This document shows positions 393 to 50,745 of a DNA stretch of 64,000 nucleotides, one piece after another. Below the pieces are notes generated by a model. That model was not told the origin of the DNA. It made no database searches and worked only from the letters and a program-made list of their open reading frames with translations. Origin of the DNA: Minisyncoccota bacterium. Its GTDB lineage: Bacteria > Patescibacteriota > Minisyncoccia > Phycocordibacterales > JAQTLZ01. Location of the stretch: positions 121,841 to 185,840 of the forward strand of contig JAQTLZ010000002.1 of NCBI GenBank assembly GCA_028714635.1. The letters run 5' to 3'. Every line of letters starts with the position of its first letter. Position 1 is the stretch's first letter. The position numbers were made by a program, and so were the translations under genes.

Positions 393-1151
393 ATGCCCCT
401 TTTTTTTCTCGTTTTTGTCGTCGTCGTATTATTGTTTCTCTCGCTTAAGGTTTTGAAGGAGTACGAGCGGGGAGTCATTTTCTTTCTTGGAAAATCTACT
501 GGTATGCGAGGTCCCGGACTTATTATTCTCGTCCCCATTTTGGAAAAGATGACGCGAGTGGAGCTTCGTACTATCACGATGAATATTCCGTCCCAGAAAA
601 TTATTACCAAAGATAATGTGTCTATTGATATCGCCGCTGTCGCTTATTATCACGTCGTCGATTCAATAAAATCTGTCATTGCTATTGAAAATGTTGCAAG
701 CGCAGTCAATCAAATCAGTCAGACTACGGTGCGAAATGTCGTCGGGCGATTCAAGCTCGATGAGCTTCTTTCGCAGACTTCAGAGATCAATATAGACATA
801 AAAGATACGATAGACAGCCATACCGAGCCGTGGGGAGTGCAGGTCACCGCCGTAGAAATCAAAGACATTACGCTTCCTGATAACATGCAAAGAGCGATGG
901 CAAAAGAAGCTGAAGCAGAACGAGAAAGACGGGCAAAAATTGTTGCGGCAGAAGGAGAATTTCAGGCGGCGGTAAAGCTTGGCGAAGCGGCAGATATTAT
1001 TTCGGCTCACCCCGTAGCATTGCAACTGAGGACACTTCAAACAATGGCAGAGATTGCTACCGAGAGAAATTCTACAATTATTTTCCCAGCGCAATTCATG
1101 ACGACTGTTGCGGATGCGATGGCGACAATTCGACAGGATAACAAGAAATAG
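393..1151 (+). CDS. SPFH/band-7 (stomatin/prohibitin-like) membrane protein
   Basis: 252 aa. N-terminal TM helix, then [27 protein letters not shown] and an [11 protein letters not shown] coiled region, which are SPFH domain hallmarks. Confidence 0.9.
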
Positions 1152-1220
1152 ATCGATTCTCCTAGATTAAAGCTCGTAACTCTGGTATAACAAAGGGGCT
1201 CATTTATTGAGTTTTTAAAT

Positions 1221-1292
1221 GGTGGCTATGGTGTAGCGGCAGCACAAGAGCTTGTGGAGCTTTTAGTCTGGGTTCAACTCCCAGTAGCCACC
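1221..1292 (+). tRNA. tRNA-His (anticodon GTG) with genomically encoded G-1
   Basis: Manual cloverleaf: G-1 at 1221, acceptor GTGGCTA/TAGCCAC, D arm GTGT-AGCGGCA-GCAC, anticodon loop TTGTGGA, T arm CTGGG-TTCAACT-CCCAG, C73. CCA is not encoded (CAA follows). Confidence 0.9.
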
Positions 1293-1325
1293 CAAGGAAA
1301 CAAAACAGCCGAAAGGCTGTTTTGT

Positions 1326-1467
1326 CTTGGGTGGCTAAGTGAGCAACCAAGGTTGCTCACGTCTGGGAGTTGAAGCCCGATTGAGCACACCGCCCTTTTA
1401 AAACAAAAGGGCGGGGTCCAATCGGGGTACTGCTTCTGTAAGAAGCGACATCCCCAGTAGCCACCCA
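1326..1467 (+). ncRNA. tRNA-His-derived structured element containing copy A of the GUACWG/UGUAA motif
   Basis: Outer helix GGGTGGCT(1329-1336)/AGCCACCC(1459-1466). Hairpin 1339-1360. CTGGG(1363-1367)/CCCAG(1453-1457). P-a helix CCCGATTG(1376-1383)/CAATCGGG(1419-1426) enclosing hairpin 1391-1415. GTACTG 1427-1432. Hairpin CTTC-TGTAA-GAAG 1433-1445. Confidence 0.6.
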
Positions 1468-1545
1468 AACAAAACATGTAACCAGTCTCTCGGTATTTCG
1501 TCATTTTGAGTAAAGGTCGCATTACTCAATTCTTAGAAAAAAACT

Positions 1546-1803
1546 ATGTTGGGATATTGCGGAGGATATGGCGGGTATAGTTTTGATCTCTTCGGGCTGT
1601 TTTTGTGGATAATGGTCTGGGTGCTCATCATCGGTCTCGTCGTGAGACTTGTCCGCGAGCATCACTGGTTCCATTGGTTCGGCGCGCATCATTTGACTCT
1701 GAAAAATTCAGCCGCTCTTGAAATTCTAGATTCTCGATACGCGAAAGGCGAGATCAGTAAAAACGAATACGAAGAAAAAAAGGCCGACATTATGAAACAA
1801 TGA
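1546..1803 (+). CDS. SHOCT-domain small membrane protein
   Basis: 85 aa. Gly/Tyr-rich N-terminus, one TM helix, and C-terminal ALEILDSRYAKGEISKNEYEEKKADI typical of the SHOCT domain. Confidence 0.7.
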   Translation: MLGYCGGYGGYSFDLFGLFLWIMVWVLIIGLVVRLVREHHWFHWFGAHHLTLKNSAALEILDSRYAKGEISKNEYEEKKADIMKQ

Positions 1804-2042: not shown

Positions 2043-2071
2043 TTGACATACAGATGCTATAGGCATACAAT
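2043..2071 (+). promoter_or_regulatory. sigma70-like promoter of high-GC cassette 1
   Basis: TTGACA (2043-2048), 17-nt spacer, TACAAT (2066-2071). Downstream 5' UTR has an AGGAGGG Shine-Dalgarno site at 2129-2135. Confidence 0.6.
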
Positions 2072-2142
2072 TTTTTTGGGCGTCCCTAGAACAACTGTGT
2101 TCCGGGACATAGCGGGGGTTAGTTTTGCAGGAGGGTTCGGAG

Positions 2143-2610
2143 ATGGACAATGGAACAGAGGCAAAGTACGTGGACGTGGCTGATCGGCTTTGGGAGGAGA
2201 GGAATGCAAAAGACACCATTGTCAGGGACGATGGGTCTGTGATGGCGGTCTTCCGCGTCCTCGAAATCAATGCCCGTCGCAAGGCTCGCCGGGTGATCCT
2301 CGGGATCAAGTTTGTCGGCGGGAAGATTTTCCAGCAGCTCTTCGTGGTCAAGAAGGAGAAGGGTGCCACGGATATCTGTCACGGCGACCGCCTGATCGCG
2401 GTTCATTCCAGTTTCATGGACATCGCCGGGCTCGCCAAGGCTTCGTTGTCAGAGCGTCTCGAGAAGGCACTGGCAATTCTCGAAAACGTCGCTCACAGCA
2501 TCAGGCGCGATCCGGGCCTTCTGGAGAAGATTCGCAATCCCAAGGATTGCCGTTCGGTCAACACAGTGGGCGGGCAAAGGTGGGACAGGCGGCGGATAGC
2601 ATACGCCTAA
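2143..2610 (+). CDS. hypothetical protein (orphan, high-GC cassette 1)
   Basis: ATG at 2143 lies 7 nt after AGGAGGG. 155 aa with protein-like composition. The overlapping alternative-frame ORFs are Arg/Gly/Ser-rich off-frame products of GC-rich DNA. Confidence 0.6.
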   Translation: MDNGTEAKYVDVADRLWEERNAKDTIVRDDGSVMAVFRVLEINARRKARRVILGIKFVGGKIFQQLFVVKKEKGATDICHGDRLIAVHSSFMDIAGLAKASLSERLEKALAILENVAHSIRRDPGLLEKIRNPKDCRSVNTVGGQRWDRRRIAYA

Positions 2611-2653
2611 TTCGACTCAACCCTTCGGAGGGAACAGATTTTCGTTTCAGTCT

Positions 2654-2695
2654 CCCACGGCGGTCCGCAAGGATTGTCCGTGGGTTTTTATTTTT
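2654..2695 (+). terminator. rho-independent terminator
   Basis: Stem CCCACGG(2654-2660)/CCGTGGG(2678-2684) followed by TTTTTATTTTT. Confidence 0.7.
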
Positions 2696-7771: not shown

Positions 7772-7872
7772 AAAAACAGCTGAAACTAAACTGTTATCTT
7801 GTCGTGTTATACTAAGGGCCGTTCTGTCCTTTTTGCTGTTTGGCCTCGGAATCTCTCTTGAAAGGAGGGGTT

Positions 7873-8958
7873 GTGAAGAATAAAAGTGTCACACACCCTT
7901 CGGAAAGGGTGGTTTTGAAGCGTGTCGCTTCTGTTGTGCTTCATGTTTACGCTCTCATCATGCTTATTGCGGTGGGGCTTAGCATGCAAGCAGTGCTTTC
8001 CGCTGTTTCAGCGTATCTTTTCATAAGATGCGTTATCGTCATCGTCCAGTTCGAGCGTGAAATAAGAAGAACTGACGAGGGCAAGGAGCGCAAGCATTTG
8101 AAAAAAGGAGACCGGGCAAAGCTCGCTCCCATTAACTGGGTGCGCAGTATCGGTTTCTTTAGCGTACACGTCGTCGGAATTGCAGGGCCTTTTGTGGTTG
8201 GCTGGAGTTGGTGGGCGACAGGCCTTGCGGTCTTTCTCTACTACCTCCGGATGTTTTTCATCACCGGTTTTTACCATCGGTATTTTAGCCACAAAAGTTT
8301 CAAGTCATCTCGTCGATTCGTTTGTATTATGGCGCTCTGCGGGGCAAGCGCTCTTCAGAGGTCCGCCACTTGGTGGGCAGCGGTGCATCGATGGCATCAT
8401 GCTCATTCGGATCAAGATGAGTCAGACAGGCACTCTCCAGTCGTTTGGAATATATTTGAGACGCATTTCGGCTGGCTCAACAGAAAGGGCGCAAAAATAT
8501 TCAAGCCTCTTTCTGATGAGTTCATGCAGGACCCAGTCTTTGTGAAAAGTCAGAAGTATCCATGGGTGTATCTCCCGGCCGTCATTATGGCCCTGGGGTG
8601 TTACATCTTGGGCGTGGTCCTTTCACACTGGTTCTATGATGTGAGCGGTGGGCAATTGCTTATCGCGTTCTTCACAAGCACGACAGCTCTCTATCACGGC
8701 ACAGCCTTTGTGAACTCTATCACGCACATGATGGGCGAACGGTCTCATGATACGAAGGACAACAGCGGAGATGTGTGGTGGCTCGTACTCTTCGTTCTCG
8801 GAGAGTGGAAGCATAATAAGCATCATCACGATCCGAGTGCCGCAAAAGAGAGTGAATGCGATCCGACCTATTGGGGGCTCCTTGTCCTCGAAAGGCTGGG
8901 GCTCATTTGGGATTTGATCCCGGAAAAGGAGGAAAGAGATAAGTTAAGGGCTGCTTGA
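7873..8958 (+). CDS. membrane fatty-acid (acyl-CoA/acyl-lipid delta-9 type) desaturase, high-GC cassette
   Basis: Three His boxes: HRYFSH, HRWHHAHSD and HNKHHH. GTG at 7873 is preceded by AGGAGGGG (7863-7870). The track start at 7840 is less likely. Confidence 0.8.
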   Translation: MKNKSVTHPSERVVLKRVASVVLHVYALIMLIAVGLSMQAVLSAVSAYLFIRCVIVIVQFEREIRRTDEGKERKHLKKGDRAKLAPINWVRSIGFFSVHVVGIAGPFVVGWSWWATGLAVFLYYLRMFFITGFYHRYFSHKSFKSSRRFVCIMALCGASALQRSATWWAAVHRWHHAHSDQDESDRHSPVVWNIFETHFGWLNRKGAKIFKPLSDEFMQDPVFVKSQKYPWVYLPAVIMALGCYILGVVLSHWFYDVSGGQLLIAFFTSTTALYHGTAFVNSITHMMGERSHDTKDNSGDVWWLVLFVLGEWKHNKHHHDPSAAKESECDPTYWGLLVLERLGLIWDLIPEKEERDKLRAA

Positions 8959-8975
8959 AAAAGCGCCCTTTTTTC
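8946..8975 (+). terminator. rho-independent terminator overlapping the desaturase stop
   Basis: AAGGGCTGC..GCGCCCTT stem followed by TTTTTT (8969-8974). Confidence 0.6.
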
Positions 8976-8996: not shown

Positions 8997-9632
8997 ATGC
9001 ATATTTTCATTACTATGCCGGAGAAGAAAAAGAAAAAATCGAAACATATCCACGTCAAAGATGTCTATTTTGCGGATATGGGCGGGAAGATGAAAAAGGG
9101 ATTTGGACGCTCTCTCGTTAGGAAAATTTTTCATCGGCCTGTTTTTAAGCGCGAAATTCATCACAAGACTTTCTCGGCAGATTTTAGCGCTACAAAACTT
9201 CGTTGGTACTCCAATCTTTTGAATATGTTCTACTTGAAGCTCGATGGTACCGCTTCCTGTTTTTTTACCGATGAAGGAACGCTCGTGATTATTTTCATGG
9301 TTTGGGGAGATCCCGATGCGGAAGAATTTTTCGAAATGCCGGAGATGAAAGGTGAATTTGTGGAGGATAGGGAAGCGACCCAGAAGAAAAAGAAAAAGAG
9401 TTTGAAGGTGGATAAGGATTCAGTGAAGGAGGAAGTGAAAGATGACGGGTATCACCTTCAATATGAAGAGACGTATAAAGATCACGGAAAAGAAGTGAGA
9501 ATGTTTGAGCATGTGATTTATTCCGGAATTGATAAGCTGGTTTTCCGGGCGATTGTCCCACCGAAAGTTTTGCCGGAGACTCTTGATGATATTTTGGCGA
9601 TTGCAAAGTCGCTTAGAATAAAGGTAACTTAA
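8997..9632 (+). CDS. hypothetical Lys-rich protein
   Basis: 211 aa with no recognisable motif. TATGAT at 8984-8989 lies 7 nt before the ATG (leaderless layout). Confidence 0.6.
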   Translation: MHIFITMPEKKKKKSKHIHVKDVYFADMGGKMKKGFGRSLVRKIFHRPVFKREIHHKTFSADFSATKLRWYSNLLNMFYLKLDGTASCFFTDEGTLVIIFMVWGDPDAEEFFEMPEMKGEFVEDREATQKKKKKSLKVDKDSVKEEVKDDGYHLQYEETYKDHGKEVRMFEHVIYSGIDKLVFRAIVPPKVLPETLDDILAIAKSLRIKVT

Positions 9633-9689: not shown

Positions 9690-9770
9690 CGTAACGAGTA
9701 GGGTAAAGAGCGGAAGGTAACGGCGAAAACCTTTAATTTCGCTACTGTTTTTTGTGGGAGGGCTAGTAAT

Positions 9771-10526
9771 ATGTCGCCTGTGAATAGTGATAGGGCATAC
9801 GTGCCAATTTACTTGGCACTGGACAAGAAGGACTGGGAGCAAGCATCTCCGCTCCTTCGCACGCTCGGCAATCGCATTGATGGAGTCAAGATCCATCGCA
9901 TCTGGGATGAGCTTGGCGCGAAATCTGTTTCGATGATTCGCGACCTTGGTGTCCCTGATGCCTGGGTTGATCTCAAGCTTTTTGATACGCCGGACACCGC
10001 GGCCGAACGCGCCGAACAGGTCAAGAAAGCTGGCGCCAAAATTTTGACCGTACACGCCAAGGGCGAAGTCGAAATGATGATGGCTGCGGTCAAGAACGGT
10101 CCGGAACTGGTTCTCGCCATCACGGAACTTACTTCGCTTACGGCGGAGCAGGTGGAAGTGGGCGGTGGCCTCACGCCTAAATCGGCCGTGCTTCATTGGG
10201 CGCGTGTTGCCAAGCTGGGGACTGTTGGTGGAGTCGTTACTTCCGCACTGGAAGTGGGCATGCTCTCGAAACGACCGGAACTCAAGGGTTTCGTTCTGGC
10301 TGTCCCGGGCACGCGCTCTGCGGGCGTGGACGTCAACGACCAGAAGCGTTCGGATACGCCTTACAACGCGGTGCTTGCGGGCGCAGGACTTATCGTCGCT
10401 GGTCGGCAGGTGACTGCCGCGGAAGACCCCGTTACCGCTATCGAAGCGCTTCGGGAAGAAGTCAACAAGGCGAGTGATGAGCGGCTTCGTCTCTTGCAGG
10501 AGATGGGAAAGAAGAAAGTCGCGTAA
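9771..10526 (+). CDS. pyrF: orotidine 5'-phosphate decarboxylase
   Basis: 251 aa. LALD, VDLKLFDTPDT (DxKxxD), ITELTS, VPGTR..NDQKR..TP and VAGRQVTAAEDP align with type-1 PyrF. GGGAGGG Shine-Dalgarno site lies 8 nt upstream. About 67% GC in a spot count. Confidence 0.85.
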   Translation: MSPVNSDRAYVPIYLALDKKDWEQASPLLRTLGNRIDGVKIHRIWDELGAKSVSMIRDLGVPDAWVDLKLFDTPDTAAERAEQVKKAGAKILTVHAKGEVEMMMAAVKNGPELVLAITELTSLTAEQVEVGGGLTPKSAVLHWARVAKLGTVGGVVTSALEVGMLSKRPELKGFVLAVPGTRSAGVDVNDQKRSDTPYNAVLAGAGLIVAGRQVTAAEDPVTAIEALREEVNKASDERLRLLQEMGKKKVA

Positions 10527-10539
10527 CAACCCGGCTCAC

Positions 10540-10570
10540 CCCGCCCATCGGCATTGTGCCGACGGGCGGG
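10540..10570 (+). promoter_or_regulatory. GC-rich intercistronic stem-loop between pyrF and the PRTase gene
   Basis: 14-position stem CCCGCCCATCGGCA/TGCCGACGGGCGGG (one mismatch) with a TTG loop and no U-tract. The track start at 10556 lies inside it. Confidence 0.55.
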
Positions 10571-10606
10571 AAAGCCGAAGACAGAAGACAAAGAAAGGAG
10601 AGTACC

Positions 10607-11431
10607 TTGCATAAGGACCAAATAAGTCAGACGGCGACGTCTCTGATCCATTTCGATCGAGACACGCCTGTGCTGGAAATCCTCCGTCTCTGTGGTGGAG
10701 TCTACCTCTGCCCTAAGGATGCGGCGGGGAAACGTGTCGGCCCGCTCGTTGGGTACGCTGGAAAAAGCCCGCGCCTGAAGACTAATCTCGTGGGGGATAT
10801 CTACGCGAATTTCTCCACGGCCGAGCGCTACTGGCACGTCATGGCTGAGTTCGCGCGGCGTCTCGTCGAGAACCCGAGATTCCAGGAGATTCTTCCGAGA
10901 CTGGACGGTCTCTGTGGGATGCCCATGGGCGGGATTACATATTCGTCGCACCTTGCGCGAGCATGTGATCGTACGGGGATCTTTCTGGAAAAGCTGGTCA
11001 CCGCGGTGGCGAACCCGATCGAGGGGACGAAGGAAGAGTCCATTCTGGTGGCCGGTCGCTGCGAGATTATCCTTGGAGCCAACTACGCGATCGTCGAGGA
11101 CGTTACCAATAACTTTTCCACCACGCTGAAAGCGATCGGTCTGATCGAAAAAGCTGGCGGAAAGGTCATTGCCATCTGCAGTATCCTGAACCGTTCACCG
11201 AAGCATACGTCTGACTTTCCGCTTCCGGACGGTCGGGAAATTCCGGTCATCTCGGCTTACCAAGAGCCGTTCCCGGAATTTGAGACGGATGACGAGGCCG
11301 TTGCGGCGGACATTGCCGCTGGAAACGTGATCTGGAAGCCAAAGGAAAATTGGCCCAAGCTCATGACCGCGATGGATGCTGCGCGTGAGACGGCGCTAGC
11401 GAATCAGTCGGACAAGCCGTCCGGTTCGTAA
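10607..11431 (+). CDS. type I phosphoribosyltransferase (orotate-PRTase-like)
   Basis: PRPP-binding loop YAIVEDVTNNFST. TTG at 10607 lies 6 nt after AAAGGAGAG. Substrate is not determinable by eye. Confidence 0.6.
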   Translation: MHKDQISQTATSLIHFDRDTPVLEILRLCGGVYLCPKDAAGKRVGPLVGYAGKSPRLKTNLVGDIYANFSTAERYWHVMAEFARRLVENPRFQEILPRLDGLCGMPMGGITYSSHLARACDRTGIFLEKLVTAVANPIEGTKEESILVAGRCEIILGANYAIVEDVTNNFSTTLKAIGLIEKAGGKVIAICSILNRSPKHTSDFPLPDGREIPVISAYQEPFPEFETDDEAVAADIAAGNVIWKPKENWPKLMTAMDAARETALANQSDKPSGS

Positions 11432-11459
11432 GTTGTATTCGAATCAATTGTTTCTTAGT

Positions 11460-11493
11460 GCAGAGTCGCTCGCCCGGACTCTGCGCTTTTTTA
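11460..11493 (+). terminator. rho-independent terminator
   Basis: GCAGAGTC(11460-11467)/GACTCTGC(11477-11484), then GCTTTTTTA. Confidence 0.75.
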
Positions 11494-12437: not shown

Positions 12438-12482
12438 TAAAGCGCGCATAAACATCTGGGAACGTAAGGTGCGCGCTTTTTC
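12438..12482. terminator. bidirectional terminator hairpin
   Basis: AAAGCGCGCA(12438-12447)/TGCGCGCTTT(12470-12479) with A-run and T-run flanks, between convergent genes. Confidence 0.55.
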
Positions 12483-12613
12483 GGAGTTGTGGCCGCGGGG
12501 GCCTCTCGTCCGGTCATAATACGACTGCAAGCTGATCGAGTGGGACTCGATGGGTCTTGCATTTCTATAAAGTACGAAGTCGCGGCGCTCGTAGCTGGGC
12601 TGCTGTGGGTCAT

Positions 12614-13201
12614 TCAGGCCAGAACGACTTGACCGCGGCGGGCCGTCTCGATTGAGATCGGCTCGCACCTTTGCGTCGGCGCGTCTTCAGGCAACCTCGC
12701 ACAGGTGTCTTCCGGGGGCATCGGGATCGTCTCCACCTTGTAATTCTGGTGGAAGACCACCGATTTAGGCTGAATGATCGTGTCGTCGTCGATGGTGATT
12801 GTCGTCTTCGTGGCCGTGACCGACAACTTCGCATTTACGATCGAGATGAGGACCCAATGGAACTCTGCACCCTGTGGCATGAGAGCGATCCCTCGCTTCA
12901 TGATGGCGTCCAGTTCGGCGTGGAAGCTGGACTTTGCCACGATGAAGACCGGTGGCAACTCCTTCGGCTGAACGGCATTGGACGGCTGATGCGGGTTCCA
13001 GTGTGCGATTTCAACCTGGCACATCCTCGCTTCAGCGGGGACCGTTTCTCCGGCTGCGACCCGAATAGGATCCAGGGTGATGCTTCCCCCTGCACCGACG
13101 CCGATGTGGCGCTCTCCGAGCTTCTTTTGCAGCACTACTGCTTGCTGCGATACGGCTAACGATCGTTCCCGCATAACTGCCTGCCTTTCTCCCCATGTCA
13201 A
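12614..13201 (-). CDS. hypothetical protein (orphan, high-GC cassette); start may be the ATG at 13174
   Basis: 195-aa ORF with protein-like composition. The opposite-strand ORF 12671..13159 is Arg-rich and off-frame-like. Upstream on the minus strand are hairpin CCCCGT-CGAT-ACGGGG and GGGGAGAAAGG. Confidence 0.5.
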   Translation of the reverse strand: MTWGERQAVMRERSLAVSQQAVVLQKKLGERHIGVGAGGSITLDPIRVAAGETVPAEARMCQVEIAHWNPHQPSNAVQPKELPPVFIVAKSSFHAELDAIMKRGIALMPQGAEFHWVLISIVNAKLSVTATKTTITIDDDTIIQPKSVVFHQNYKVETIPMPPEDTCARLPEDAPTQRCEPISIETARRGQVVLA

Positions 13202-13301
13202 GCATGAGGTACTGTAATCTCCCCGTATCGACGGGGCAAACTTCTCTCATAATTCTATCTTTTTATCTCGCCTCACGCTATAGTAGGGGAAATAAATTTT
13301 T

Positions 13302-13889
13302 ATGCACACGCTTCTTGTTTTTGTTCTCCAGTGGAGTTACCTCGGTATTTTTGTCGTTGTCTTTGCCGAATCAGGATTTCTTCTGGGATTTTTTCTTCCT
13401 GGTGACTCACTTCTTTTTACCGCAGGACTTCTCGCTTCGCAGGGAATTTTTAATATTTGGATTCTCGTTCCTCTGATTGTCATCGGCGCAATTCTCGGAG
13501 ACAGTTTCGGTTATTACATGGGCAACAAATTAGGCCCGAAAATTTTCGTGCGGAAAGATTCATTTTTTTTCAAACAAGAGAATGTTGAAAAGACAAATCA
13601 TTTTTATGAAAAATATGGAGTGAAGACGATCATTCTCGCGCGATTCGTGCCGATTGTTCGCACTTTCGCTCCCATCTTTGCTGGTGTGGGTGGAATGAAA
13701 TACGCGACATTTCTTTCTTATAACGTGATTGGAGGATTTCTTTGGGGTGCTGGAGTGACTCTTGCCGGCTTTTTTCTCGGGCGAGCCTTCCCAGGAATTG
13801 AGCACTATCTCACTTATATTATTATCGCGATTATCCTCCTCTCTTTTGTTCCAATTCTCTTAGAGTATTTCAAGAAGCGAACAGCTTGA
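13302..13889 (+). CDS. DedA/SNARE-associated family membrane protein
   Basis: 195 aa. VFAESGFLLGFFLPGDSLLFTAG signature and multiple TM helices. Confidence 0.85.
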   Translation: MHTLLVFVLQWSYLGIFVVVFAESGFLLGFFLPGDSLLFTAGLLASQGIFNIWILVPLIVIGAILGDSFGYYMGNKLGPKIFVRKDSFFFKQENVEKTNHFYEKYGVKTIILARFVPIVRTFAPIFAGVGGMKYATFLSYNVIGGFLWGAGVTLAGFFLGRAFPGIEHYLTYIIIAIILLSFVPILLEYFKKRTA

Positions 13890-13950
13890 AAAGTTTTATA
13901 AAAGTTGTATAATAATCTCTTCAAAGAGTCCTTTCAGGAGGGTTGAAGAC

Positions 13951-14166
13951 ATGCCAGTAGACAAAGCGAAGTTGGAAAGAGAGATTCTCGCGGCTCTCCT
14001 CTTCAATCGTTGCATGATGACTGAGGGAGCGCTTCGCCAGAAACTTGGCACCTCTATTCCGTTGCCCGACCTTCTTGAGGTCAAACAAGACCTCATCGAG
14101 CGCGGTCTCATTGAAGAAGATCTGGGTGGGAGAAGTCCTACACTCATCCTTCTCGATGGGAAATAG
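13951..14166 (+). CDS. small winged-helix-like hypothetical protein
   Basis: 71 aa. AGGAGGG (13936-13942) lies 8 nt before the ATG. GC is elevated relative to neighbours. Confidence 0.5.
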   Translation: MPVDKAKLEREILAALLFNRCMMTEGALRQKLGTSIPLPDLLEVKQDLIERGLIEEDLGGRSPTLILLDGK

Positions 14167-14235
14167 TTTCCTCGCCATTCCAGGAGCCTCACCGCTTCTG
14201 GATTTTTGTTTTTAGCGTTATACTGGTATAAATTT

Positions 14236-16847: not shown

Positions 16848-17027
16848 ATGTCAAAACTCACTGAATATGTTAAAGACACACAAGCAGAATTGAAGCATGT
16901 AAGCTGGCCGACACGAAGCCAAGCTATTGCTTTTACTGTTGTTGTTATTCTCATTTCTATCGTCGTATCATTTTTCCTTGGACTTTTCGATTCACTTTTT
17001 CAGTATTTGCTTTCACAAATCGTTTAA
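16848..17027 (+). CDS. secE: preprotein translocase subunit SecE (59 aa, below the ORF-track cutoff)
   Basis: Hand translation gives MSKLTEYVKDTQAELKHVSWPTRSQAIAFTVVVILISIVVSFFLGLFDSLFQYLLSQIV. Canonical position upstream of nusG. Confidence 0.85.
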   Translation: MSKLTEYVKDTQAELKHVSWPTRSQAIAFTVVVILISIVVSFFLGLFDSLFQYLLSQIV

Positions 17028-17042
17028 CTTTTCCTCATAACT

Positions 17043-17588: not shown

Positions 17589-17616
17589 AAAAGTTTAGCT
17601 GAAGCAAACTTTTTTA

Positions 17617-18224: not shown

Positions 18225-18240
18225 TGGATAAATAATGATA

Positions 18241-27345: not shown

Positions 27346-27373
27346 TTGACAATATAATCATATATGTTAAAAT
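27346..27373 (+). promoter_or_regulatory. sigma70-like promoter of the high-GC protease cassette
   Basis: TTGACA (27346-27351), 16-nt spacer, TAAAAT (27368-27373). Followed by hairpin TTCCGT..ACGGAA (27384-27403) and Shine-Dalgarno site GGAGGT (27424-27429). Confidence 0.6.
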
Positions 27374-27434
27374 AATACAAGATTCCGTCCTTTCAAAACG
27401 GAACATTTTGGGGAAACAAACGTGGAGGTGGAGC

Positions 27435-28235
27435 GTGAGAAAGATTCCGTTTGCTGTTGTCATTATTATGGTGGTTGTGGGGTTTGGTGCAGGCGCTTTC
27501 CTGCTCATCTCCCACGACATGGAGCGCGTGGAGAAAATACAAGCATTGGGGTTCAAGGGAAGGCTTGTTGGGGCAGATCGGCACATCGAAATTGCCGAGC
27601 ATCCGCCGGGCCAGTTTCTTCCAGGCTACACGGTCGGCCATATCATGTGCCGATCCTATTTTGAAAAGGACTGGCGTGTTGCTGGGACAGGCACGCAGTT
27701 TCCCGACGAGAGCGTCGTAACCGCTATGCATGTTTTCGGCAAGTGCGAGGAACAGAAGCGCTATTGGGGATTTCGCCCCCTAACTTCGGATACTATTCGA
27801 GGGAAGGGGCTAATCATACCAATCGTCTCGATGTCTCCTACGAAGGCAGGAGACGATTCAGCAATCTGTGTTCTCGGCAAGCCGGGCGAAGACGAATACC
27901 GAAATCCTTTTTGCGGCCTCTTCTCCGAGAAAGAGGACTTGACGGAGTTTCAAGAAGGTAAGGACGGCAAAATCAACGCCGTACCGTACCAGGTCAAAGT
28001 TCGGTTTCTCTCTCGTCCAGATGTCGTCCTACAGGGGCAATATCTCATGGATGCACGCCCTGGAGCACAGTATCTCCTGTTTCCCGTGCAGGGCGGGGTG
28101 GCATCTGGGGAGAGTGGCACTCTCGGTATCATCGAGGGCGATCAAACCAAGTTCCTTTTGCTTACACAGCAAAGGGCGCGTCGGTTTGGGGTCGCGTTTG
28201 TGGTGAACCGAAACCAACTTGTTCCGAAGAAGTAA
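27435..28235 (+). CDS. membrane-anchored trypsin-like serine peptidase candidate (high-GC cassette)
   Basis: GTG at 27435 after the Shine-Dalgarno site. TM helix. Putative triad contexts VVTAMHVF (His), GDDSAICVL (Asp) and ASGESGTLG (Ser). Confidence 0.5.
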   Translation: MRKIPFAVVIIMVVVGFGAGAFLLISHDMERVEKIQALGFKGRLVGADRHIEIAEHPPGQFLPGYTVGHIMCRSYFEKDWRVAGTGTQFPDESVVTAMHVFGKCEEQKRYWGFRPLTSDTIRGKGLIIPIVSMSPTKAGDDSAICVLGKPGEDEYRNPFCGLFSEKEDLTEFQEGKDGKINAVPYQVKVRFLSRPDVVLQGQYLMDARPGAQYLLFPVQGGVASGESGTLGIIEGDQTKFLLLTQQRARRFGVAFVVNRNQLVPKK

Positions 28236-28249
28236 GAAAGTAGAATAAA

Positions 28250-28293
28250 ATCCGCTAAACAGACATCCGATTTGTTTAGCGGATGTTTGTTTT
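28250..28293 (+). terminator. rho-independent terminator
   Basis: Perfect 12-bp stem ATCCGCTAAACA/TGTTTAGCGGAT, then GTTTGTTTT. Confidence 0.8.
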
Positions 28294-41876: not shown

Positions 41877-41941
41877 CTACTCTAGTTAGTCGTTCCTGTG
41901 ATTTTCCTTCCGTTTACCCGTCTTCTTAAGGAGATTCAAGC

Positions 41942-42484
41942 ATGCCTGCCGCATTTTCCGCTCCAGTAAAGTTTGATCAAAAGCTTTGGTTATACCGCCT
42001 AACCGAATGTGTTCTCGGGGAGATTGGGGCTAACGAAGGCGGAGTAGATACCATAATGGATCAGCAGCTAGCGTTTGTGGCGGCCTTAAAAGAGGTCTGT
42101 CTCACGCACTCTGTGAAGTTTGCTCCCGAACTTAATCTTGTTCGGTCGTTTGAAGTCCTCATATCTGGGCGCTTCTACATTTGTGAAATATTTCGGCTCC
42201 TCTCTAATATCGGAACCGAAGGATTGCTCGAAATCGCCCGGGAATACGAGCGCATCCCCACCGGAATGTTGGGTGCCGGGCTTGTAGCGTTGAAACACGC
42301 TCCACAAGTGCCCACCGACAATTGGGTTGTGTGTCCGGGAGAAAGGGAGTCAGCGCCCGAAGAGGGTGGTCATCTTATGACTTATGTGATTCACCGTGAT
42401 GGTGATGGCGCAGAAGTCTACTTGAACTCTCTTGGTAACGGTTGTACCAGAGGCGCTTACGCGATGTTTCTGCGTGAAAAATAA
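41942..42484 (+). CDS. hypothetical protein (orphan, high-GC cassette)
   Basis: 180 aa. AAGGAG (41928-41933) lies 8 nt before the ATG. No motif recognised. Confidence 0.6.
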   Translation: MPAAFSAPVKFDQKLWLYRLTECVLGEIGANEGGVDTIMDQQLAFVAALKEVCLTHSVKFAPELNLVRSFEVLISGRFYICEIFRLLSNIGTEGLLEIAREYERIPTGMLGAGLVALKHAPQVPTDNWVVCPGERESAPEEGGHLMTYVIHRDGDGAEVYLNSLGNGCTRGAYAMFLREK

Positions 42485-46490: not shown

Positions 46491-46519
46491 TTGACAACAC
46501 TTTCTTTTTTCTATCTAAT
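46491..46519 (+). promoter_or_regulatory. sigma70-like promoter of a high-GC cassette
   Basis: TTGACA (46491-46496), 17-nt spacer, TCTAAT (46514-46519). Then hairpin AGCTGA..TCAGCT (46530-46545) and Shine-Dalgarno site GAGGAAGGG (46557-46565). Confidence 0.55.
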
Positions 46520-46572
46520 CTATCCAGTGAGCTGATGAATCAGCTTTGGCCTTTTGAGGAAGGGATTCCCCC

Positions 46573-47199
46573 ATGTTAGATAATTGGATCGCGGTGCTTT
46601 TCGTGGTAATGGCTGTTGTTCTATGTCTCGTCGTTCTGTACATTACGATCCTTGCCGTGAAGAATCCGAAGCTTACACTGAAGGCAACATTACGATTCCG
46701 GGAGTACGCAGATCTCGGGGTTCTGCAGGTACCGGCGGATTACAATCATAGGACGTATTTGGCATCCTGTGTTCAAAGGAATGGAGACGAGTGGGATTTC
46801 GATTCAGGTGCAACAGACGCTAATTTCCCGACGCCGAGTCGTATCTTGCGTCCAGGAGACAGGCTTCGTGTCCGAATTTGGGAGCAGATAGGAGGTACCA
46901 ACTCCCATACACGGATGGAGTTTCTCGATAGTCTCGGCGCCGTCTATCCGGGCGTTCAGGGTATTTGTCTCTTGTGTGAGGAGATGGAGCCGAAGTTGCC
47001 ACATCACCATTCCAATTTGTGGTTCGGCTCGTATGATCGGCCGGAGAACCTTTTTCAAGACGAGCGTGGTAATCAGATGTTTATGCGCGCGCTTGTCGTG
47101 AAAGATCCCGATTCGATCTTTCTGTGTCTCTGCTCATTCGGTTCCCCTTCGGATGACAATGAGATGGGACTTATCGTTTGTTTTACCGAAGCGGGCTAA
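46573..47199 (+). CDS. membrane-anchored hypothetical protein (orphan, high-GC cassette)
   Basis: 208 aa with an N-terminal TM helix. No motif recognised. Confidence 0.6.
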   Translation: MLDNWIAVLFVVMAVVLCLVVLYITILAVKNPKLTLKATLRFREYADLGVLQVPADYNHRTYLASCVQRNGDEWDFDSGATDANFPTPSRILRPGDRLRVRIWEQIGGTNSHTRMEFLDSLGAVYPGVQGICLLCEEMEPKLPHHHSNLWFGSYDRPENLFQDERGNQMFMRALVVKDPDSIFLCLCSFGSPSDDNEMGLIVCFTEAG

Positions 47200-47340
47200 G
47201 TGTCGCTTTGTGCACGAAACGTTTACTACTGAACCGCCTTTCCGAAAGGAATAGGAGGTTCTTTTATTTATTGGACAAAACTTCAGTTAGATCCTAGTAT
47301 TCTTAATAGGAAACGTGGTGTTTCCGGAAAGGAGTTTGCA

Positions 47341-47619
47341 TTGGAATACGAAATACAGTTGAAAGACAACTCGGTTCCTGGAACGCATCTGACATTACCA
47401 GGTTCCTACGAGTTCTTTGGCCCGTTCGGTTCCATCCAACAGGCTGAAGATCTTCTGAGAGCAAAAGGTTGGAGGCGGACAGAGCGTCTTGATCCCAACA
47501 TTTTGTGCGAGCCGATTATTGTGGAATGGCTGGGGTTGGCACCTCATTTGGTGATGACCATCAATACTATTCCAGAACGGTCTCGCAAATCTCCGGAAGT
47601 TTTGCCTGCTGCCGCGTGA
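47341..47619 (+). CDS. small hypothetical protein (orphan, high-GC cassette)
   Basis: 92 aa. TTG start 6 nt after GGAAAGGAG. Upstream TTGGAC-18 nt-TAGTAT (47271-47300) and hairpin GGAAAC-GTGGT-GTTTCC (47309-47325). Confidence 0.5.
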   Translation: MEYEIQLKDNSVPGTHLTLPGSYEFFGPFGSIQQAEDLLRAKGWRRTERLDPNILCEPIIVEWLGLAPHLVMTINTIPERSRKSPEVLPAAA

Positions 47620-47634
47620 AGTCTCAATTTTTCG

Positions 47635-47674
47635 AATGCCTGGCGTGAGTTCATCGCGCTAGGCATTTTATTTT
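47635..47674 (+). terminator. rho-independent terminator
   Basis: AATGCCTGGCG/CGCTAGGCATT stem (one G-U pair), then TTTATTTT. Confidence 0.7.
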
Positions 47675-50050: not shown

Positions 50051-50080
50051 AAAACGGCACTCAGACGAGCTGCCGTTTTT
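50051..50080. terminator. bidirectional terminator hairpin
   Basis: AAAACGGCA..TGCCGTTTTT, between convergent rpsR and the CDP-alcohol transferase gene (overlaps the latter's 3' end). Confidence 0.65.
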
Positions 50081-50684
50081 CGATTTCTTCTGCCCATTTT
50101 TCGTAATGTGCTAGGAGAAGTCCGTCTGCCTTTTTATAGTACCAGAATTGACTGTAGAGAGTTAAAACTATTGCTATGACTCCTCCAATCACGCTGGTCC
50201 AGAATGCGGCAGTATGAATGTACTCTGGCGCGGTACTTCGTAGGACACCAACTGCTCCGATGAAAAGGTATTGAAATACTGCTTTCACTTTTCCCGGCAT
50301 GTCAGCATCGAAACTAATTCCGAGCTTCTCCATTCTCCACCTAAGTACCCCTATCTCTACTTCACGCTGCATTATGATTAGCGCAGTAGGTATTACCGGA
50401 AGGGGGTACTCCCAAGAGTAGTCATACAAGAGTTCAGCAGTGAAGATTTTATCCGAAATGGAATCAATCTGACCGCCAGACTTGCACTTTCCTCCCAGGC
50501 GCTTTGCGACTACGCCATCCAGTATGTCGCTCACCACAACTCCGAGCATTACCAGCAACACTTCCTTCCAACCTGCTTTGTGCAGGTTGAGGTAAATCAT
50601 GTAAGGCCCGAAGAAGACGGGCCGAGAGGCTGAGAGCACGAATGCGATCATTACAGCCACTATCCTGCCCGTCTTCCTTAGCAT
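50061..50684 (-). CDS. CDP-alcohol phosphatidyltransferase family protein
   Basis: 207 aa. DGVVAKR..G..IDSISD (DGxxAR..G...D...D), polytopic. GGAG lies 8 nt upstream of the ATG. Confidence 0.75.
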   Translation of the reverse strand: MLRKTGRIVAVMIAFVLSASRPVFFGPYMIYLNLHKAGWKEVLLVMLGVVVSDILDGVVAKRLGGKCKSGGQIDSISDKIFTAELLYDYSWEYPLPVIPTALIIMQREVEIGVLRWRMEKLGISFDADMPGKVKAVFQYLFIGAVGVLRSTAPEYIHTAAFWTSVIGGVIAIVLTLYSQFWYYKKADGLLLAHYEKWAEEIEKRQLV

Positions 50685-50745
50685 TTTTTGGTCTCCGTGG
50701 GTTTTCTGAAAACTAATGTATCACAACAAAAAAATTAGTAAAATG

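What the first reader, a model, noticed from the sequence alone, without database searches (positions are those of the whole stretch)
2043..2695. High-GC, SD-led, self-contained gene cassettes scattered through a low-GC, SD-less core (pattern; cassette 1 shown)
At least eight short segments stand out compositionally from the core.

My 60-nt spot counts:
- Islands: 10141-10200 has 40/60 GC, 8341-8400 has 38/60, 28021-28080 has 32/60 and 46861-46920 has 32/60.
- Core: 9001-9060 has 19/60 and 31381-31440 has 25/60.

The segments are approximately 2043-2695, 7805-8975, 9756-11493, 12438-13300, 13930-14200, 27346-28293, 41928-42490 and 46491-47675. The segment 50061-50700 may be a ninth.

The best-resolved cassettes share one unit structure:
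- a sigma70-type promoter with a real -35 box (TTGACA at 2043, 27346 and 46491);
- a small 5' UTR hairpin;
- a strong Shine-Dalgarno site (AGGAGGG at 2129, AGGAGGGG at 7863, GGGAGGG at 9756, AGGAGGG at 13936, GGAGGT at 27424, AAGGAG at 41928, GAGGAAGGG at 46557, GGAAAGGAG at 47326);
- an ORF;
- a hairpin terminator.

Most cargo consists of orphan proteins. The surrounding housekeeping genes have no Shine-Dalgarno site and use a different promoter style. Two expression grammars that track two compositions suggest repeated acquisition of foreign single-gene cassettes, possibly from a high-GC partner or host. An alternative is a distinct regulatory class of genes.
Basis: partly seen in the sequence, partly recalled or inferred. 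Interest (0 to 1): 0.72.

Follow-up and report, generated by a model that had tools for sequence, protein, structure and literature searches.

The report
Variable gene slots with own grammar
In this tiny-celled (CPR/Paceibacterota) bacterial genome, about ten GC-rich genes that use a classic ribosome-binding site sit in fixed slots and differ greatly between close relatives, while the conserved backbone genes start translation with no leader; the pattern is real, but these are resident variable slots, not freshly imported self-contained foreign cassettes.

Summary
Eleven genes in nine segments are GC-rich: segment GC is 0.48-0.57 against 0.426 for the rest of the window, and GC3 is 0.49-0.72 against a core mean of 0.42. 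Nine of the 11 have a strong Shine-Dalgarno site, against 0 of 51 core genes.

The window is a Candidatus Paceibacterota (CPR) chromosome. Its backbone genes show leaderless geometry: the -10 box ends 6-7 nt before the ATG in 16 of 50.

Four related genomes add a third, independent property. The same intergenic slots exist in all of them, but the ORFs in them are hyperdivergent, replaced or present/absent:
- Hyperdivergent: C1, 34% identity against about 92% for the backbone.
- Replaced by unalignable genes, sometimes of the same function: pyrF, and the desaturase in STB_34.
- Present or absent: C4 and C9.

The promoter, 5'UTR and SD are conserved up to about 10-15 nt into the ORF at C1 and pyrF. 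They therefore belong to the recipient genome and did not arrive with a cassette.

The nearest pyrF homologues are other CPR bacteria. The orphan C1 has relatives only in its own clade, and no orphan matched a phage, defence or solved-structure library.

Two questions remain open: why GC3 is specific to each slot, and whether this lineage's 16S rRNA has an anti-SD.

The parts
2043..2071 (+). C1 promoter, TTGACA-17-TACAAT. An upstream terminator-like hairpin at 2018-2036 precedes it.
   Evidence: It lies in a stretch (2039-2153) that is 85% identical to relative STB_28 (locus L002).
2078..2142 (+). C1 5'UTR, about 64 nt, with a hairpin at 2082-2108 and the SD AGGAGGG at 2129-2135, 7 nt before the ATG.
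   Evidence: The SD and the first 11 nt of the ORF are identical in L002, while the 10 nt upstream of the SD differ. The fold is no better than shuffled sequence (z = 0.31).
2143..2610 (+). C1 ORF, 155 aa, an orphan cytoplasmic alpha+beta protein. GC 0.57, GC3 0.72.
   Evidence: The STB_28 allele is 34% identical with in-frame indels. The family has 4 members among 1.84e9 representatives. dN is 0.63; fourfold sites at conserved residues differ at 0.50, like the flanking genes. AlphaFold2 pLDDT is 68, with no fold match.
2654..2694 (+). C1 intrinsic terminator: stem CCCACGG...CCGTGGG followed by a T-run.
   Evidence: Almost identical to L002 across roughly 45 nt.
7808..8958 (+). C2. The -10 box TATACT is at 7808-7813. 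The 5'UTR has a 10-bp hairpin that sequesters the SD (7849-7872). The SD AGGAGGGG is at 7863-7870. The GTG-start fatty-acid desaturase ORF is 7873-8958.
   Evidence: The upstream 110 nt are 95% identical in L002. The protein is 88.5% identical in STB_28, and 31% identical and on the opposite strand in STB_34. dN/dS is 0.088.
9722..11431 (+). C3. A hairpin plus T-run lies at 9722-9752 and the SD GGGAGGG at 9756-9762. pyrF (OMP decarboxylase) is 9771-10526. A pyrE-like phosphoribosyltransferase is 10556-11431. GC is 0.57.
   Evidence: The same slot in L002 and L003 holds pyrF genes that cannot be aligned (336 and 361 aa), while the upstream region through the SD and the first roughly 15 nt is conserved between the window and L002. 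The strongest tetranucleotide outlier in the window.
12439..13190 (-). C4. A minus-strand orphan ORF, 12614-13174 (186 aa, GC 0.59, GC3 0.72). A GGGGAGAAAGG SD region lies upstream at 13178-13190. A bidirectional terminator hairpin lies at 12439-12479.
   Evidence: The whole unit is absent from L002 (48-nt gap) and L003 (180 nt). There are no target-site duplications or terminal repeats. NCBI annotators call the same 186-aa gene.
13886..14202 (+). C5. Promoter TTGAAA-16-TATAAT at 13886-13913. SD AGGAGGG at 13936-13942. A 71-aa ORF at 13951-14166. Terminator at 14179-14202.
   Evidence: The protein is 82% identical in STB_28, dN/dS 0.17. In STB_34 the promoter is conserved, but a different SD (GGGAGGG) and an unalignable 73-aa ORF follow it.
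27346..28284 (+). C6. Promoter TTGACA-16-TAAAAT at 27346-27373. SD GGAGGT at 27424-27429. A GTG-start 266-aa ORF at 27435-28235 with an N-terminal membrane anchor. A 14-bp terminator at 28250-28284.
   Evidence: No Pfam, NCBIfam, PADLOC or PDB hit, only a sub-threshold PHROG match (E = 0.0046), and nothing in viral contigs. No homologue in 80 metagenome loci carrying the neighbouring glyA gene. No close relative was available for this slot.
41928..42484 (+). C7 (slot A, between a class II aminoacyl-tRNA synthetase gene and an M16 peptidase gene). SD AAGGAG at 41928-41933. A 180-aa orphan ORF at 41942-42484.
   Evidence: Identity is 72% in STB_28 (neighbours 93-99%), 26% in JAWVGW (E = 1e-7) and undetectable in STB_34. 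In the three closer relatives the slot gene has an SD-like site (duplex -5.9 to -8.2 kcal/mol) and GC 0.50-0.52. dN/dS is 0.15.
46491..47668 (+). C8 and C8b (slot B, between metG and tatD). The -35 box TTGACA is at 46491. The SD GAGGAAGGG is at 46556-46564. A 208-aa membrane-anchored orphan is at 46573-47199. The SD GGAAAGGAG is at 47326. A TTG-start 92-aa orphan is at 47341-47619. A 15-bp terminator is at 47634-47668.
   Evidence: Relatives carry unrelated ORFs of 93, 145 and 214 aa here, each with its own SD-like site and a conserved TTGAC(A/T) just after the metG stop codon.
50061..50745 (-). C9. A PgsA-like CDP-alcohol phosphatidyltransferase, 50061-50684 on the minus strand, with a weak SD (ACGGAGA) and a short leader.
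   Evidence: Absent between rpsR and efp in all four relatives; one of them has a short-chain dehydrogenase gene there instead. GC 0.48, SD -6.6 kcal/mol. This is the weakest member.

Best explanation
The window is a stretch of a Candidatus Paceibacterota (CPR/Patescibacteria) chromosome that runs two modes of gene expression side by side.

1. The conserved, roughly 43% GC backbone is expressed mainly as leaderless or SD-less mRNA. A -10 box ends 6-7 nt before an ATG start codon.
2. At fixed intergenic slots sit one- or two-gene units of the flexible genome. Each has a resident promoter, in four cases a sigma70-type promoter with a good -35 box. Each has a 30-65 nt leader, a strong Shine-Dalgarno site and usually an intrinsic terminator.

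The ORFs in these slots are the fastest-changing part of the genome, and they change in three ways:
- Some diverge in place under weak constraint or diversifying selection: C1, C5 and C7.
- Some are swapped for unalignable genes, sometimes of the same function: pyrF/pyrE-like, the desaturase in STB_34, and the metG-tatD slot. This most likely happens by recombination anchored in the conserved flanks. The source is probably the wider CPR gene pool.
- Some are simple gains or losses: C4 and C9.

The proposed reason for the link is inferred, not shown. Leaderless initiation needs an exact promoter-to-ATG geometry that an incoming or rapidly remodelled ORF cannot bring with it. An SD-led leader works for whatever ORF follows it. 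Variable genes therefore persist where an SD-containing 'landing pad' exists.

Shown here: the composition, SD and -10 statistics; conservation of the slots; conservation of the promoter and UTR against divergence of the ORF; purifying selection on C2, C5 and C7; and CPR affinity of pyrF.

Inferred: leaderless transcription itself, use of the SD by this organism's ribosomes, the recombination route, and the landing-pad rationale.

The cause of the GC excess is not explained.
For: Organism and synteny:
- Relatives are Paceibacterota MAGs with a collinear backbone.

Leaderless geometry:
- In 16 of 50 core genes a TANNNT hexamer ends exactly 6-7 nt before the start, against 0-2 genes at most other distances. 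No island gene has a hexamer 4-12 nt before its start (0 of 11).
- Core genes start with ATG in 47 of 50 cases, island genes in 7 of 11 (p = 0.016).

SD class:
- 9 of 11 island starts against 0 of 51 core starts; p = 2e-11 against the islands' own composition.

Variability, compared with STB_28:
- Median identity is 17% for island genes and 92% for core genes (p = 1.6e-4). Seven of 10 island genes are absent or below 50%, against 2 of 30 core genes (data).

Resident signals:
- C1 promoter, UTR, SD and terminator are conserved while the ORF is 34% identical.
- The C2 leader is 95% identical.
- The C3 leader is conserved through the SD and about 15 nt of ORF, after which the pyrF genes cannot be aligned.
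- The C5 promoter is conserved in three genomes, with a different ORF in STB_34.
- The slot B -35 box is conserved in four genomes with four unrelated ORFs.

These are real genes:
- dN/dS is 0.09-0.17 for C2, C5 and C7. C1 has in-frame indels and 24 invariant residues across four members. NCBI gene calls are identical for eight of the units; the ninth checked, the pyrE-like protein as read here, is not in the collection.

Not an assembly artefact:
- Another assembly of the same strain and a Logan read-run assembly match at 99.95-100% across the C1, C6, C8 and C9 junctions.

Gene pool:
- pyrF hits are CPR.
- In a Komeilibacteria contig, pyrD and pyrF again form a GC-rich (0.57-0.64), SD-led (-11 kcal/mol) island in a 0.49 GC background.
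Against: - No transcript data exist, so leaderless and leadered starts are inferred from motif geometry only.
- The 16S 3' end could not be retrieved. The literature reports that only 48% of Parcubacteria 16S genes have a detectable anti-SD (PMC9297842), so use of the SD is not proven.
- The class is mixed. C2 is as conserved as the backbone. C9 and C3b have a weak SD or none.
- Other accessory genes carry the backbone grammar. These are SPFH/SHOCT at 393-1803, an extra 199-aa gene in STB_28, and the Bub-like/R-M defence island upstream. So 'variable' does not imply 'GC-rich and SD-led'.
- The GC excess is unexplained:
  - It is not the codon preference of ribosomal-protein and elongation-factor genes.
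  - Backbone genes that look recombined (aaRS-II, IleRS) are not GC3-enriched.
  - GC3 is specific to each slot even across unalignable genes (ANOVA p = 0.001). Neither simple import followed by drift towards backbone composition nor the landing-pad idea predicts this.
- In a more distant relative (76% MetRS identity) the slot genes are no longer SD-led.
- A crude survey of 1,512 ORFs in other CPR loci found no general coupling of GC3 and SD.
Confidence: 0.6

Rival explanations
1. Each segment is a self-contained foreign cassette (promoter, UTR, SD, ORF, terminator) acquired repeatedly from a higher-GC partner or host organism.
For: - Composition is atypical, and the pyrF/pyrE-like segment, C4 and C8 are tetranucleotide outliers.
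- C4 and C9 are present only in this strain, and the pyrF and slot-B contents are replaced between close relatives.
- The promoters and SD sites look like those of ordinary bacteria.
Against: - The promoter, UTR and SD lie outside the divergent tract and are shared with relatives at C1, C2, C3 and C5; at slot B the -35 box is shared.
- The nearest pyrF homologues are CPR and at most 53% identical.
- The C1 family is restricted to this clade.
- The orphans' 90%-identity clusters hold only this strain.
- There are no integrases, repeats or duplications at the boundaries.
- There are no significant phage, defence-system or viral-contig matches.
- C1 fourfold sites have diverged like those of its flanking genes.
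- GC3 shows no drift towards the backbone value in either lineage.
Confidence: 0.12
2. A purely resident regulatory class. These are native, vertically inherited genes kept under SD-dependent, leadered and possibly conditional translation. They are weakly constrained or under diversifying selection, so they drift beyond recognition. No lateral transfer is needed, and GC3 reflects a local equilibrium.
For: - Slots, promoters and SD sites are conserved across the three closer relatives.
- C1's dN/dS is about 0.8, with synonymous divergence equal to its neighbours'. At the observed dS of 0.6-0.8 this predicts about 35-45% identity, as seen.
- Slot A proteins are still detectably homologous at 26% identity.
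- GC3 is stable within each slot.
- SD-sequestering hairpins in the C2, C5 and C7 leaders would allow translational control.
Against: - pyrF is a constrained enzyme. It cannot become unalignable, and change from 251 aa to 336 or 361 aa, while the backbone stays 83-94% identical. The desaturase in STB_34 is inverted.
- C4 and C9 are clean presence/absence differences.
- Slot B ORFs differ in number and length.
- The hairpins are not statistically supported.
Confidence: 0.22
3. An artefact. The GC-rich pieces are mis-binned or chimeric insertions from other organisms in the metagenome, or they are not genes at all.
For: The genome is a metagenome-assembled one. Composition changes abruptly at the segment edges.
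Against: - Other assemblies of the same strain agree at 99.95-100% across the junctions.
- The same slots, in the same order, occur in four other MAGs from two projects.
- dN/dS is well below 1 and there are Pfam domains.
Confidence: 0.02

Closest known systems
Bacterial genomes rich in leaderless transcripts (GeneMarkS-2 'group C', for example Actinobacteria and Deinococcus; PMC6028130)
   Same: - A Pribnow box sits a fixed short distance from the start codon of first genes.
- A second set of leadered genes carries an SD ribosome-binding site.
- The share of predicted leaderless genes here (about one third of core genes) falls within the 25-50% that the paper reports.
   Different: - The SD set here is a small minority, about 15% of genes. 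It coincides with GC-rich, hypervariable genes.
- Genes internal to operons show no SD.
- That paper reports that atypical genes are usually lower in GC than the bulk. Here they are higher.
- I found no paper in the searchable library describing this partition in CPR bacteria.
Replacement-type flexible genomic islands, such as O-antigen or glycosylation islands at a fixed locus between conserved genes (from my own knowledge of the pangenome literature; not checked here)
   Same: - The chromosomal position between conserved flanking genes is the same.
- The contents are non-homologous or extremely divergent, yet sometimes functionally equivalent (pyrF, desaturase).
- The flanks are conserved enough to anchor homologous recombination.
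   Different: - The scale is a single gene.
- The units are GC-richer, not AT-richer, than the backbone.
- The divergent tract begins just inside the ORF, leaving a resident promoter and SD.
- Many contents are orphans and not surface-polysaccharide genes.
Parcubacteria with no detectable anti-SD in 16S rRNA (Tsurumaki et al. 2022, PMC9297842)
   Same: - The phylum is the same.
- An SD-less backbone is what such ribosomes would predict.
- In the window, rplK is not followed by rplA. The paper links anti-SD loss to the group that lacks ribosomal protein uL1.
   Different: - Here a conserved minority of genes keeps very strong SD sites at canonical spacing. That argues the anti-SD is present and used, or that the motif does something else.
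- Neither the uL1 status nor the 16S tail could be checked.
Bacteroidetes, where SD use is generally suppressed but a few genes such as rpsU keep a strong SD for regulation (from my own knowledge of work on Flavobacterium ribosomes; not checked here)
   Same: A small SD-bearing minority in a genome that otherwise avoids SD sites. This would allow a separate, conditional translation channel.
   Different: - The SD genes here are accessory orphans and metabolic genes, not ribosomal-protein genes.
- The backbone here is leaderless and does not use a non-SD leader.
- Occlusion of the anti-SD is untested.
Integron gene-cassette arrays
   Same: A resident promoter drives exchangeable ORFs at a fixed site.
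   Different: - No integrase was found.
- There is no attC-like repeat family at the unit boundaries.
- There are many single-gene slots, not one array.
- Each unit has its own SD and terminator.

Membership tests
Leaderless-rich bacterial genome (GeneMarkS-2 group C type) | A -10 (Pribnow) box at a fixed short distance upstream of the start codon of first genes in operons. | tested here: met
   The hexamer ends 6-7 nt before the ATG in 16 of 50 core genes, against 0-2 genes at most other distances. The same geometry appears in relatives, for example tatD, the AI-2E transporter gene and the M16 peptidase gene.
Leaderless-rich bacterial genome (GeneMarkS-2 group C type) | Transcription start sites coincide with the start codon, as shown by experimental 5'-end mapping. 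| not testable with these tools
   No transcriptome data are available through the tools.
Leaderless-rich bacterial genome (GeneMarkS-2 group C type) | Leadered genes use an SD ribosome-binding site that pairs with the 16S anti-SD. | tested here: inconclusive
   The SD motif is strongly enriched at canonical spacing on the leadered class. No 16S gene is in the window or in any fetched locus.
Horizontally acquired genomic island | Composition unlike that of the host genome. | tested here: met
   GC, GC3, codon usage and tetranucleotide frequencies all differ.
Horizontally acquired genomic island | Patchy presence among close relatives. | tested here: inconclusive
   Met for C3, C4, C8, C8b and C9. 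Not met for C2, C5 and C7, which have orthologues at 72-88%, or for C1, whose orthologue is hyperdivergent.
Horizontally acquired genomic island | Mobility hallmarks at the borders: integrase or transposase, flanking direct repeats, or insertion at a tRNA gene. | tested here: not met
   No such Pfam domains occur in or next to the units. No repeats lie at the C4 borders or are shared between units. Only C1 lies near tRNA-His.
Horizontally acquired genomic island | The closest homologues lie in a different, identifiable donor taxon. | tested here: not met
   pyrF's named hits are other CPR lineages, at no more than 53% identity. C1's relatives are in its own clade. The other orphans' 90%-identity clusters hold only this strain. 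They were not searched for distant homologues.
Integron cassette array | An IntI integrase together with attI and attC recombination sites. | tested here: not met
   No integrase domain in the window. No repeated imperfect-palindrome family at the unit ends.
Anti-phage defence island | Proteins match known defence-system families. | tested here: not met
   No PADLOC hit for eight slot proteins, comprising the seven orphans and the pyrE-like protein. A true defence island (Bub-like E1/multi-ubiquitin genes, R-M) lies upstream of the window, but it has the backbone grammar.
Target of a diversity-generating retroelement | A template repeat/variable repeat pair with adenine-specific differences, plus a reverse transcriptase nearby. 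| tested here: not met
   No reverse transcriptase domain in the window. No repeat pair involves the slot ORFs. Divergence spans the whole ORF and includes indels.

The most novel reading that the evidence does not exclude
This Paceibacterota clade may maintain a dedicated second expression channel. A set of fixed chromosomal 'expression slots' (resident promoter, leader, SD and first codons) would accept or tolerate almost any ORF. They would be read by SD-dependent initiation in a lineage whose backbone is leaderless. By phylum-level precedent the anti-SD may even be lost or normally occluded in this lineage.

Each slot would also impose its own GC3 equilibrium on whatever sequence occupies it: 0.62-0.65 in three unalignable pyrF genes, and 0.54 three times at C5. 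That would imply a local mutational, repair or selective process that has not been described.

If true, it would be an integrase-free functional analogue of an integron platform in ultra-small symbionts. The accessory proteome would be translated conditionally.
Probability: 0.12. Interest if true: 0.8.

Novelty: new variant of a known kind. Interest (0 to 1): 0.5.

Why it matters
CPR/Patescibacteria make up a large share of bacterial diversity. They are almost all uncultured, and their gene-expression rules are inferred from sequence alone.

If confirmed, a clean split between a leaderless conserved backbone and SD-led, GC-rich, hypervariable slot genes would help in three ways:
- It would give annotators a simple rule for start-codon calling and for flagging the flexible genome in these MAGs.
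- It would point to the orphan proteins most likely to mediate strain-specific interactions. Two are membrane-anchored (C6, C8) and one is evolving almost neutrally behind a near-consensus promoter (C1).
- It would make the reported anti-SD loss in Parcubacteria testable. Strong, conserved SD sites are only expected if the ribosome can still read them.

The slot-specific GC3 does not fit the usual picture in which imported genes drift towards the host's composition.

Tried and rejected
- Rfam scan of the window: only tRNA-His. No riboswitch or leader family in the cassette UTRs.
- Folding of eight leaders: hairpins exist, some sequestering the SD, but none beats shuffled sequence. I did not claim structured regulatory RNAs.
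- PDB sequence search for C4, C6, C7 and C8: nothing credible.
- Viral-contig scans for C4 and C6: nothing.
- Metagenome scan with the neighbouring glyA gene. Only distant relatives were found (77% identity or less). None had a C6 homologue, so the C6 slot could not be compared.
- Translational selection as the cause of high GC3. Rejected, because island genes prefer G-ending codons (CCG, ACG, AAG). The ribosomal-protein and elongation-factor genes prefer CGA, CCA, GGA and ACA.
- GC-biased gene conversion. Not supported, because the backbone genes that look recombined are not GC3-enriched. Not excluded either.
- 'Higher-GC CPR donors bring the SD with them'. Across 138 CPR loci SD use is low at all GC levels (rho = 0.20). 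In 1,512 ORFs SD frequency at starts barely exceeds a control position, 9.9% against 7.0%. The method is crude, so the result is inconclusive.
- Integron, MITE or DGR-type repeats: none.
- Search for a 16S 3' end in all fetched loci: none. Extending from the window edges gave only an upstream defence island, and the gene at the downstream edge was not on record.
- The Nei-Gojobori estimate suggested saturated dS for C1. Re-analysis at identical-residue fourfold sites showed it is not saturated (0.50, against about 0.70 expected at saturation). I therefore withdrew the 'ancient allele imported by recombination' reading for C1 in favour of fast in-place evolution.
Full report
**What the window is.** The window is 43.8% GC. 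It encodes a reduced cellular gene set:
- Transcription and translation genes: secE-nusG-rplK, IleRS, ArgRS, MetRS, a class II aminoacyl-tRNA synthetase, EF-P and S6-SSB-S18.
- DNA genes: RecA, FtsK and RecO.
- A thymidylate/folate cluster: ThyA, DHFR, dCMP deaminase, Tmk, SHMT and FolD.
- One tRNA-His.

A scan of species-representative genomes with the Pif1 helicase gene found Candidatus Paceibacterota MAGs at 94% (STB_28) and 83% (STB_34) identity. NCBI names the window's own proteins 'Candidatus Pacebacteria bacterium'. This is a CPR/Patescibacteria chromosome.

- All six spot GC counts are exact, and the SD strings and TTGACA boxes are where stated. One SD coordinate is off by one.
- The nine segments have GC 0.478-0.569 (pooled 0.521), against 0.426 for the rest of the window.
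- With curated gene models, GC3 averages 0.587 in the 11 island genes and 0.420 in 51 core genes (p = 8e-7).
- A duplex with the canonical anti-SD of -8 kcal/mol or stronger occurs at 9 of 11 island starts and 0 of 51 core starts. The background inside the GC-rich ORFs themselves is 4.3%, so base composition does not explain the result (p = 2e-11).
- Tetranucleotide profiles single out the pyrF/pyrE-like segment, C4 and C8.

Corrections are these:
- The unit in 12438-13300 is on the minus strand.
- The pyrE-like gene has no SD.
- C9 is marginal.
- The leader hairpins are not better than shuffled sequence.
- Four of the eleven proteins have recognisable functions.

**What the 'other grammar' of the core is.**
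- Upstream of core genes a TANNNT hexamer ends exactly 6-7 nt before the start codon in 16 of 50 genes. At most other distances the count is 0-2 genes. Examples are tatD (TAAAAT, then 7 nt, then ATG), folD (TTGAGT-16-TATAAT, then 8 nt, then ATG) and thyA.
- This is the geometry of leaderless transcripts that GeneMarkS-2 describes for 'group C' bacteria (PMC6028130).
- In line with this, 47 of 50 core genes start with ATG, while 4 of 11 island genes use GTG or TTG (p = 0.016).
- Genes internal to operons also lack an SD.
- The literature reports that only 48% of Parcubacteria 16S genes have a detectable anti-SD. The lineages without it largely overlap the group that lacks ribosomal protein uL1 (PMC9297842).
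- In the window rplK is followed by a helicase gene and not by rplA. rplJ and rplL are not there either, so this does not establish that uL1 is missing.

**A third, independent property: variability.** I obtained syntenic loci from four genomes:
- STB_28: L002 and L084.
- STB_34: L003 and L085.
- Two contigs of the assembly GCA_040384425.1: L086 (MetRS 80% identical to the window's) and L167 (76%).

The backbone is collinear in all of them, at 75-99% protein identity. The island genes behave differently:

| Unit | Compared with relatives |
|---|---|
| C1 | 34% identical to the STB_28 gene in the same place |
| C2 (desaturase) | 88.5% in STB_28; 31% and inverted in STB_34 |
| C3 (pyrF) | No detectable similarity to the pyrF genes (336 and 361 aa) in the same slot in STB_28 and STB_34. 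Those two are only 24% identical to each other |
| C4 | Absent from both relatives |
| C5 | 82% in STB_28; unalignable in STB_34 |
| C7 | 72%, 26% and undetectable in three relatives |
| metG-tatD slot | Unrelated ORFs in all four genomes |
| C9 | Absent everywhere; L167 has a dehydrogenase gene there |

Against STB_28 the median identity is 17% for island genes and 92% for core genes (p = 1.6e-4).

In the three closer relatives the slot genes are again GC-richer and SD-led.

**The expression signals are resident, not imported.**
- At C1 the TTGAC(A/T) -35 box, TACAAT box, leader, AGGAGGG, ATGGACAA and the terminator are conserved, while the ORF between them is scrambled.
- The C2 leader is 95% identical, above the roughly 83% seen in coding DNA.
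- At C3 the similarity between the window and STB_28 runs through the SD and about 15 nt of ORF, then stops. It resumes at the start of the next backbone gene.
- At C5 the promoter is shared by three genomes, but STB_34 has a different SD and a different ORF.
- At the metG-tatD slot a TTGAC(A/T) directly after the metG stop codon is shared by four genomes that carry four different ORFs.

This is hard to reconcile with arrival of complete cassettes. It fits fixed slots whose ORFs diverge or are exchanged.

**How the ORFs change.**
- Backbone dN/dS against STB_28 is 0.01-0.09. C2 is 0.088, C7 is 0.15 and C5 is 0.17, so these are real genes under purifying selection.
- For C1 the standard estimate looked saturated. 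At residues that are identical in both alleles, however, fourfold sites differ at 16 of 32 (0.50). The adjacent genes give 0.55 and 0.57, and saturation would give about 0.70.
- C1 has therefore most likely co-diverged with its neighbours while evolving at a dN/dS of about 0.8. The ORF, the in-frame indels and 24 invariant residues are maintained across the four known members. Three of those members are named Paceibacterota MAG proteins or lie on such a contig, and the fourth has no name on record.
- pyrF cannot be explained this way, so it is a replacement. Its nearest relatives are at most 53% identical, and those with names are CPR lineages: Uhrbacteria, Komeilibacteria and Doudnabacteria.
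- In the Komeilibacteria contig, pyrD and pyrF again form a GC-rich (0.57-0.64), strongly SD-led island in a 0.49 GC background. The island lies between toxin-antitoxin pairs.
- This suggests that pyrimidine-synthesis genes circulate within CPR bacteria in this form.

**What it is not.**
- It is not an assembly chimera. Another assembly of the same strain and a Logan assembly agree across the junctions, and relatives share the slots.
- It is not a phage or defence module.
- It is not an integron, MITE or DGR target.
- It is not simply 'anything acquired'. The Bub-like/R-M defence island just upstream of the window is AT-rich and SD-less. So are the SPFH/SHOCT genes around tRNA-His and an extra gene in STB_28, and some of these have leaderless-type starts.

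**Unexplained.**
- The GC excess is a general shift. A at third positions falls from 0.26 to 0.16 and G rises from 0.21 to 0.31. GC1 and GC2 rise as well. It does not follow the codon preferences of ribosomal-protein and elongation-factor genes.
- GC3 is characteristic of the slot:
  - 0.62, 0.65 and 0.63 in three unalignable pyrF genes.
  - 0.54 three times at C5.
  - 0.72 and 0.66 at C1, despite 50% turnover at fourfold sites.
  - Between-slot ANOVA gives p = 0.001.
- Neither recent import followed by drift towards backbone composition nor a simple landing-pad model predicts this. GC-biased gene conversion is not supported by the recombined backbone genes, but it is not excluded.
- Whether the ribosome of this lineage has an anti-SD could not be tested.

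**Verdict.** The finding is a real and statistically solid pattern. The best reading has confidence of about 0.6. It is a leaderless CPR backbone interspersed with resident, SD-led expression slots that hold the flexible, fast-evolving part of the genome. Some slots turn over by replacement from the CPR gene pool, and others by rapid divergence in place.

Known concepts cover most of this: leaderless-rich genomes, replacement-type flexible islands and atypical-composition genes. The following go beyond them and are worth a clade-wide follow-up:
- the coupling of expression grammar to gene variability;
- the direction of the GC shift, which is upward;
- the boundary of divergence just inside the ORF;
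- the slot-specific GC3.

Noticed in passing
window 34514-37984: The isoleucyl-tRNA synthetase carries a histidine-phosphatase (His_Phos_1) domain at residues 504-666, inside the synthetase. The same architecture occurs in relatives L084 and L086.
   Followed up: partly
window 16848-18297: secE-nusG-rplK is followed by a helicase gene. rplA, rplJ and rplL are not adjacent. This bears on the Parcubacteria group that lacks uL1 and is reported often to lack the anti-SD (PMC9297842). It does not prove that uL1 is absent.
   Followed up: partly
window 34514-41876 compared with L084: The backbone genes IleRS (70% identity) and the class II aminoacyl-tRNA synthetase (68%; fourfold sites 0.67 different) are far more diverged from STB_28 than adjacent genes (93-99%). 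This suggests a mosaic, recombined backbone.
   Followed up: partly
window 393-1803: SPFH/Band-7 and SHOCT genes flank tRNA-His (1222-1293) and are missing from STB_28. They are accessory genes with backbone-like GC and no SD.
   Followed up: partly
L170 580-6484 (about 2-8 kb upstream of the window start, same strain): A defence-type island. It holds a Bub-like ubiquitin-system set (BubE, ThiF/E1, Multi_ubiq), an HTH/M78 pair, and a DNA methylase with a 414-aa partner. GC is 0.36-0.43 and no gene has a strong SD.
   Followed up: partly
window 9722-9752: A hairpin followed by a T6 run sits immediately upstream of the pyrF SD and is conserved in STB_28. It could be a transcription attenuator of the pyr unit.
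   Followed up: no
window 56618-57399: A 782-nt AT-rich stretch (GC about 0.35) with no ORF of 60 aa or more. It contains a TTGACT-17-TAGAAT promoter-like site at 56733 and has no Rfam match.
   Followed up: no
window 18190-18214, 45006-45030 and 1421-1445: A 25-nt motif, AAAGGTGTAC(T/A)GCTCCTGTAAGGAG, recurs at 96% identity upstream of the helicase and metG genes. A weaker copy (80%) lies after tRNA-His.
   Followed up: no
window 59536-59685: A small ORF of about 49 aa, probably a membrane protein, with TACACT 6 nt before its ATG (leaderless geometry). Its stop codon overlaps the ATG of the 1080-aa gene at 59682.
   Followed up: no
window 57801-57944: Two tandem 72-nt copies (86% identical) inside the PG_binding_1 protein gene. 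That gene is also a tetranucleotide outlier, with unusually high GC2 (0.52) and low GC3 (0.31).
   Followed up: no
L169 4803-10211 (Komeilibacteria contig MHKO01000019.1): GC-rich, SD-led pyrD and pyrF genes lie between a BrnT/CopG toxin-antitoxin pair and an NTase/HEPN pair. A 1.3-kb stretch with no called gene lies between pyrD and pyrF.
   Followed up: partly
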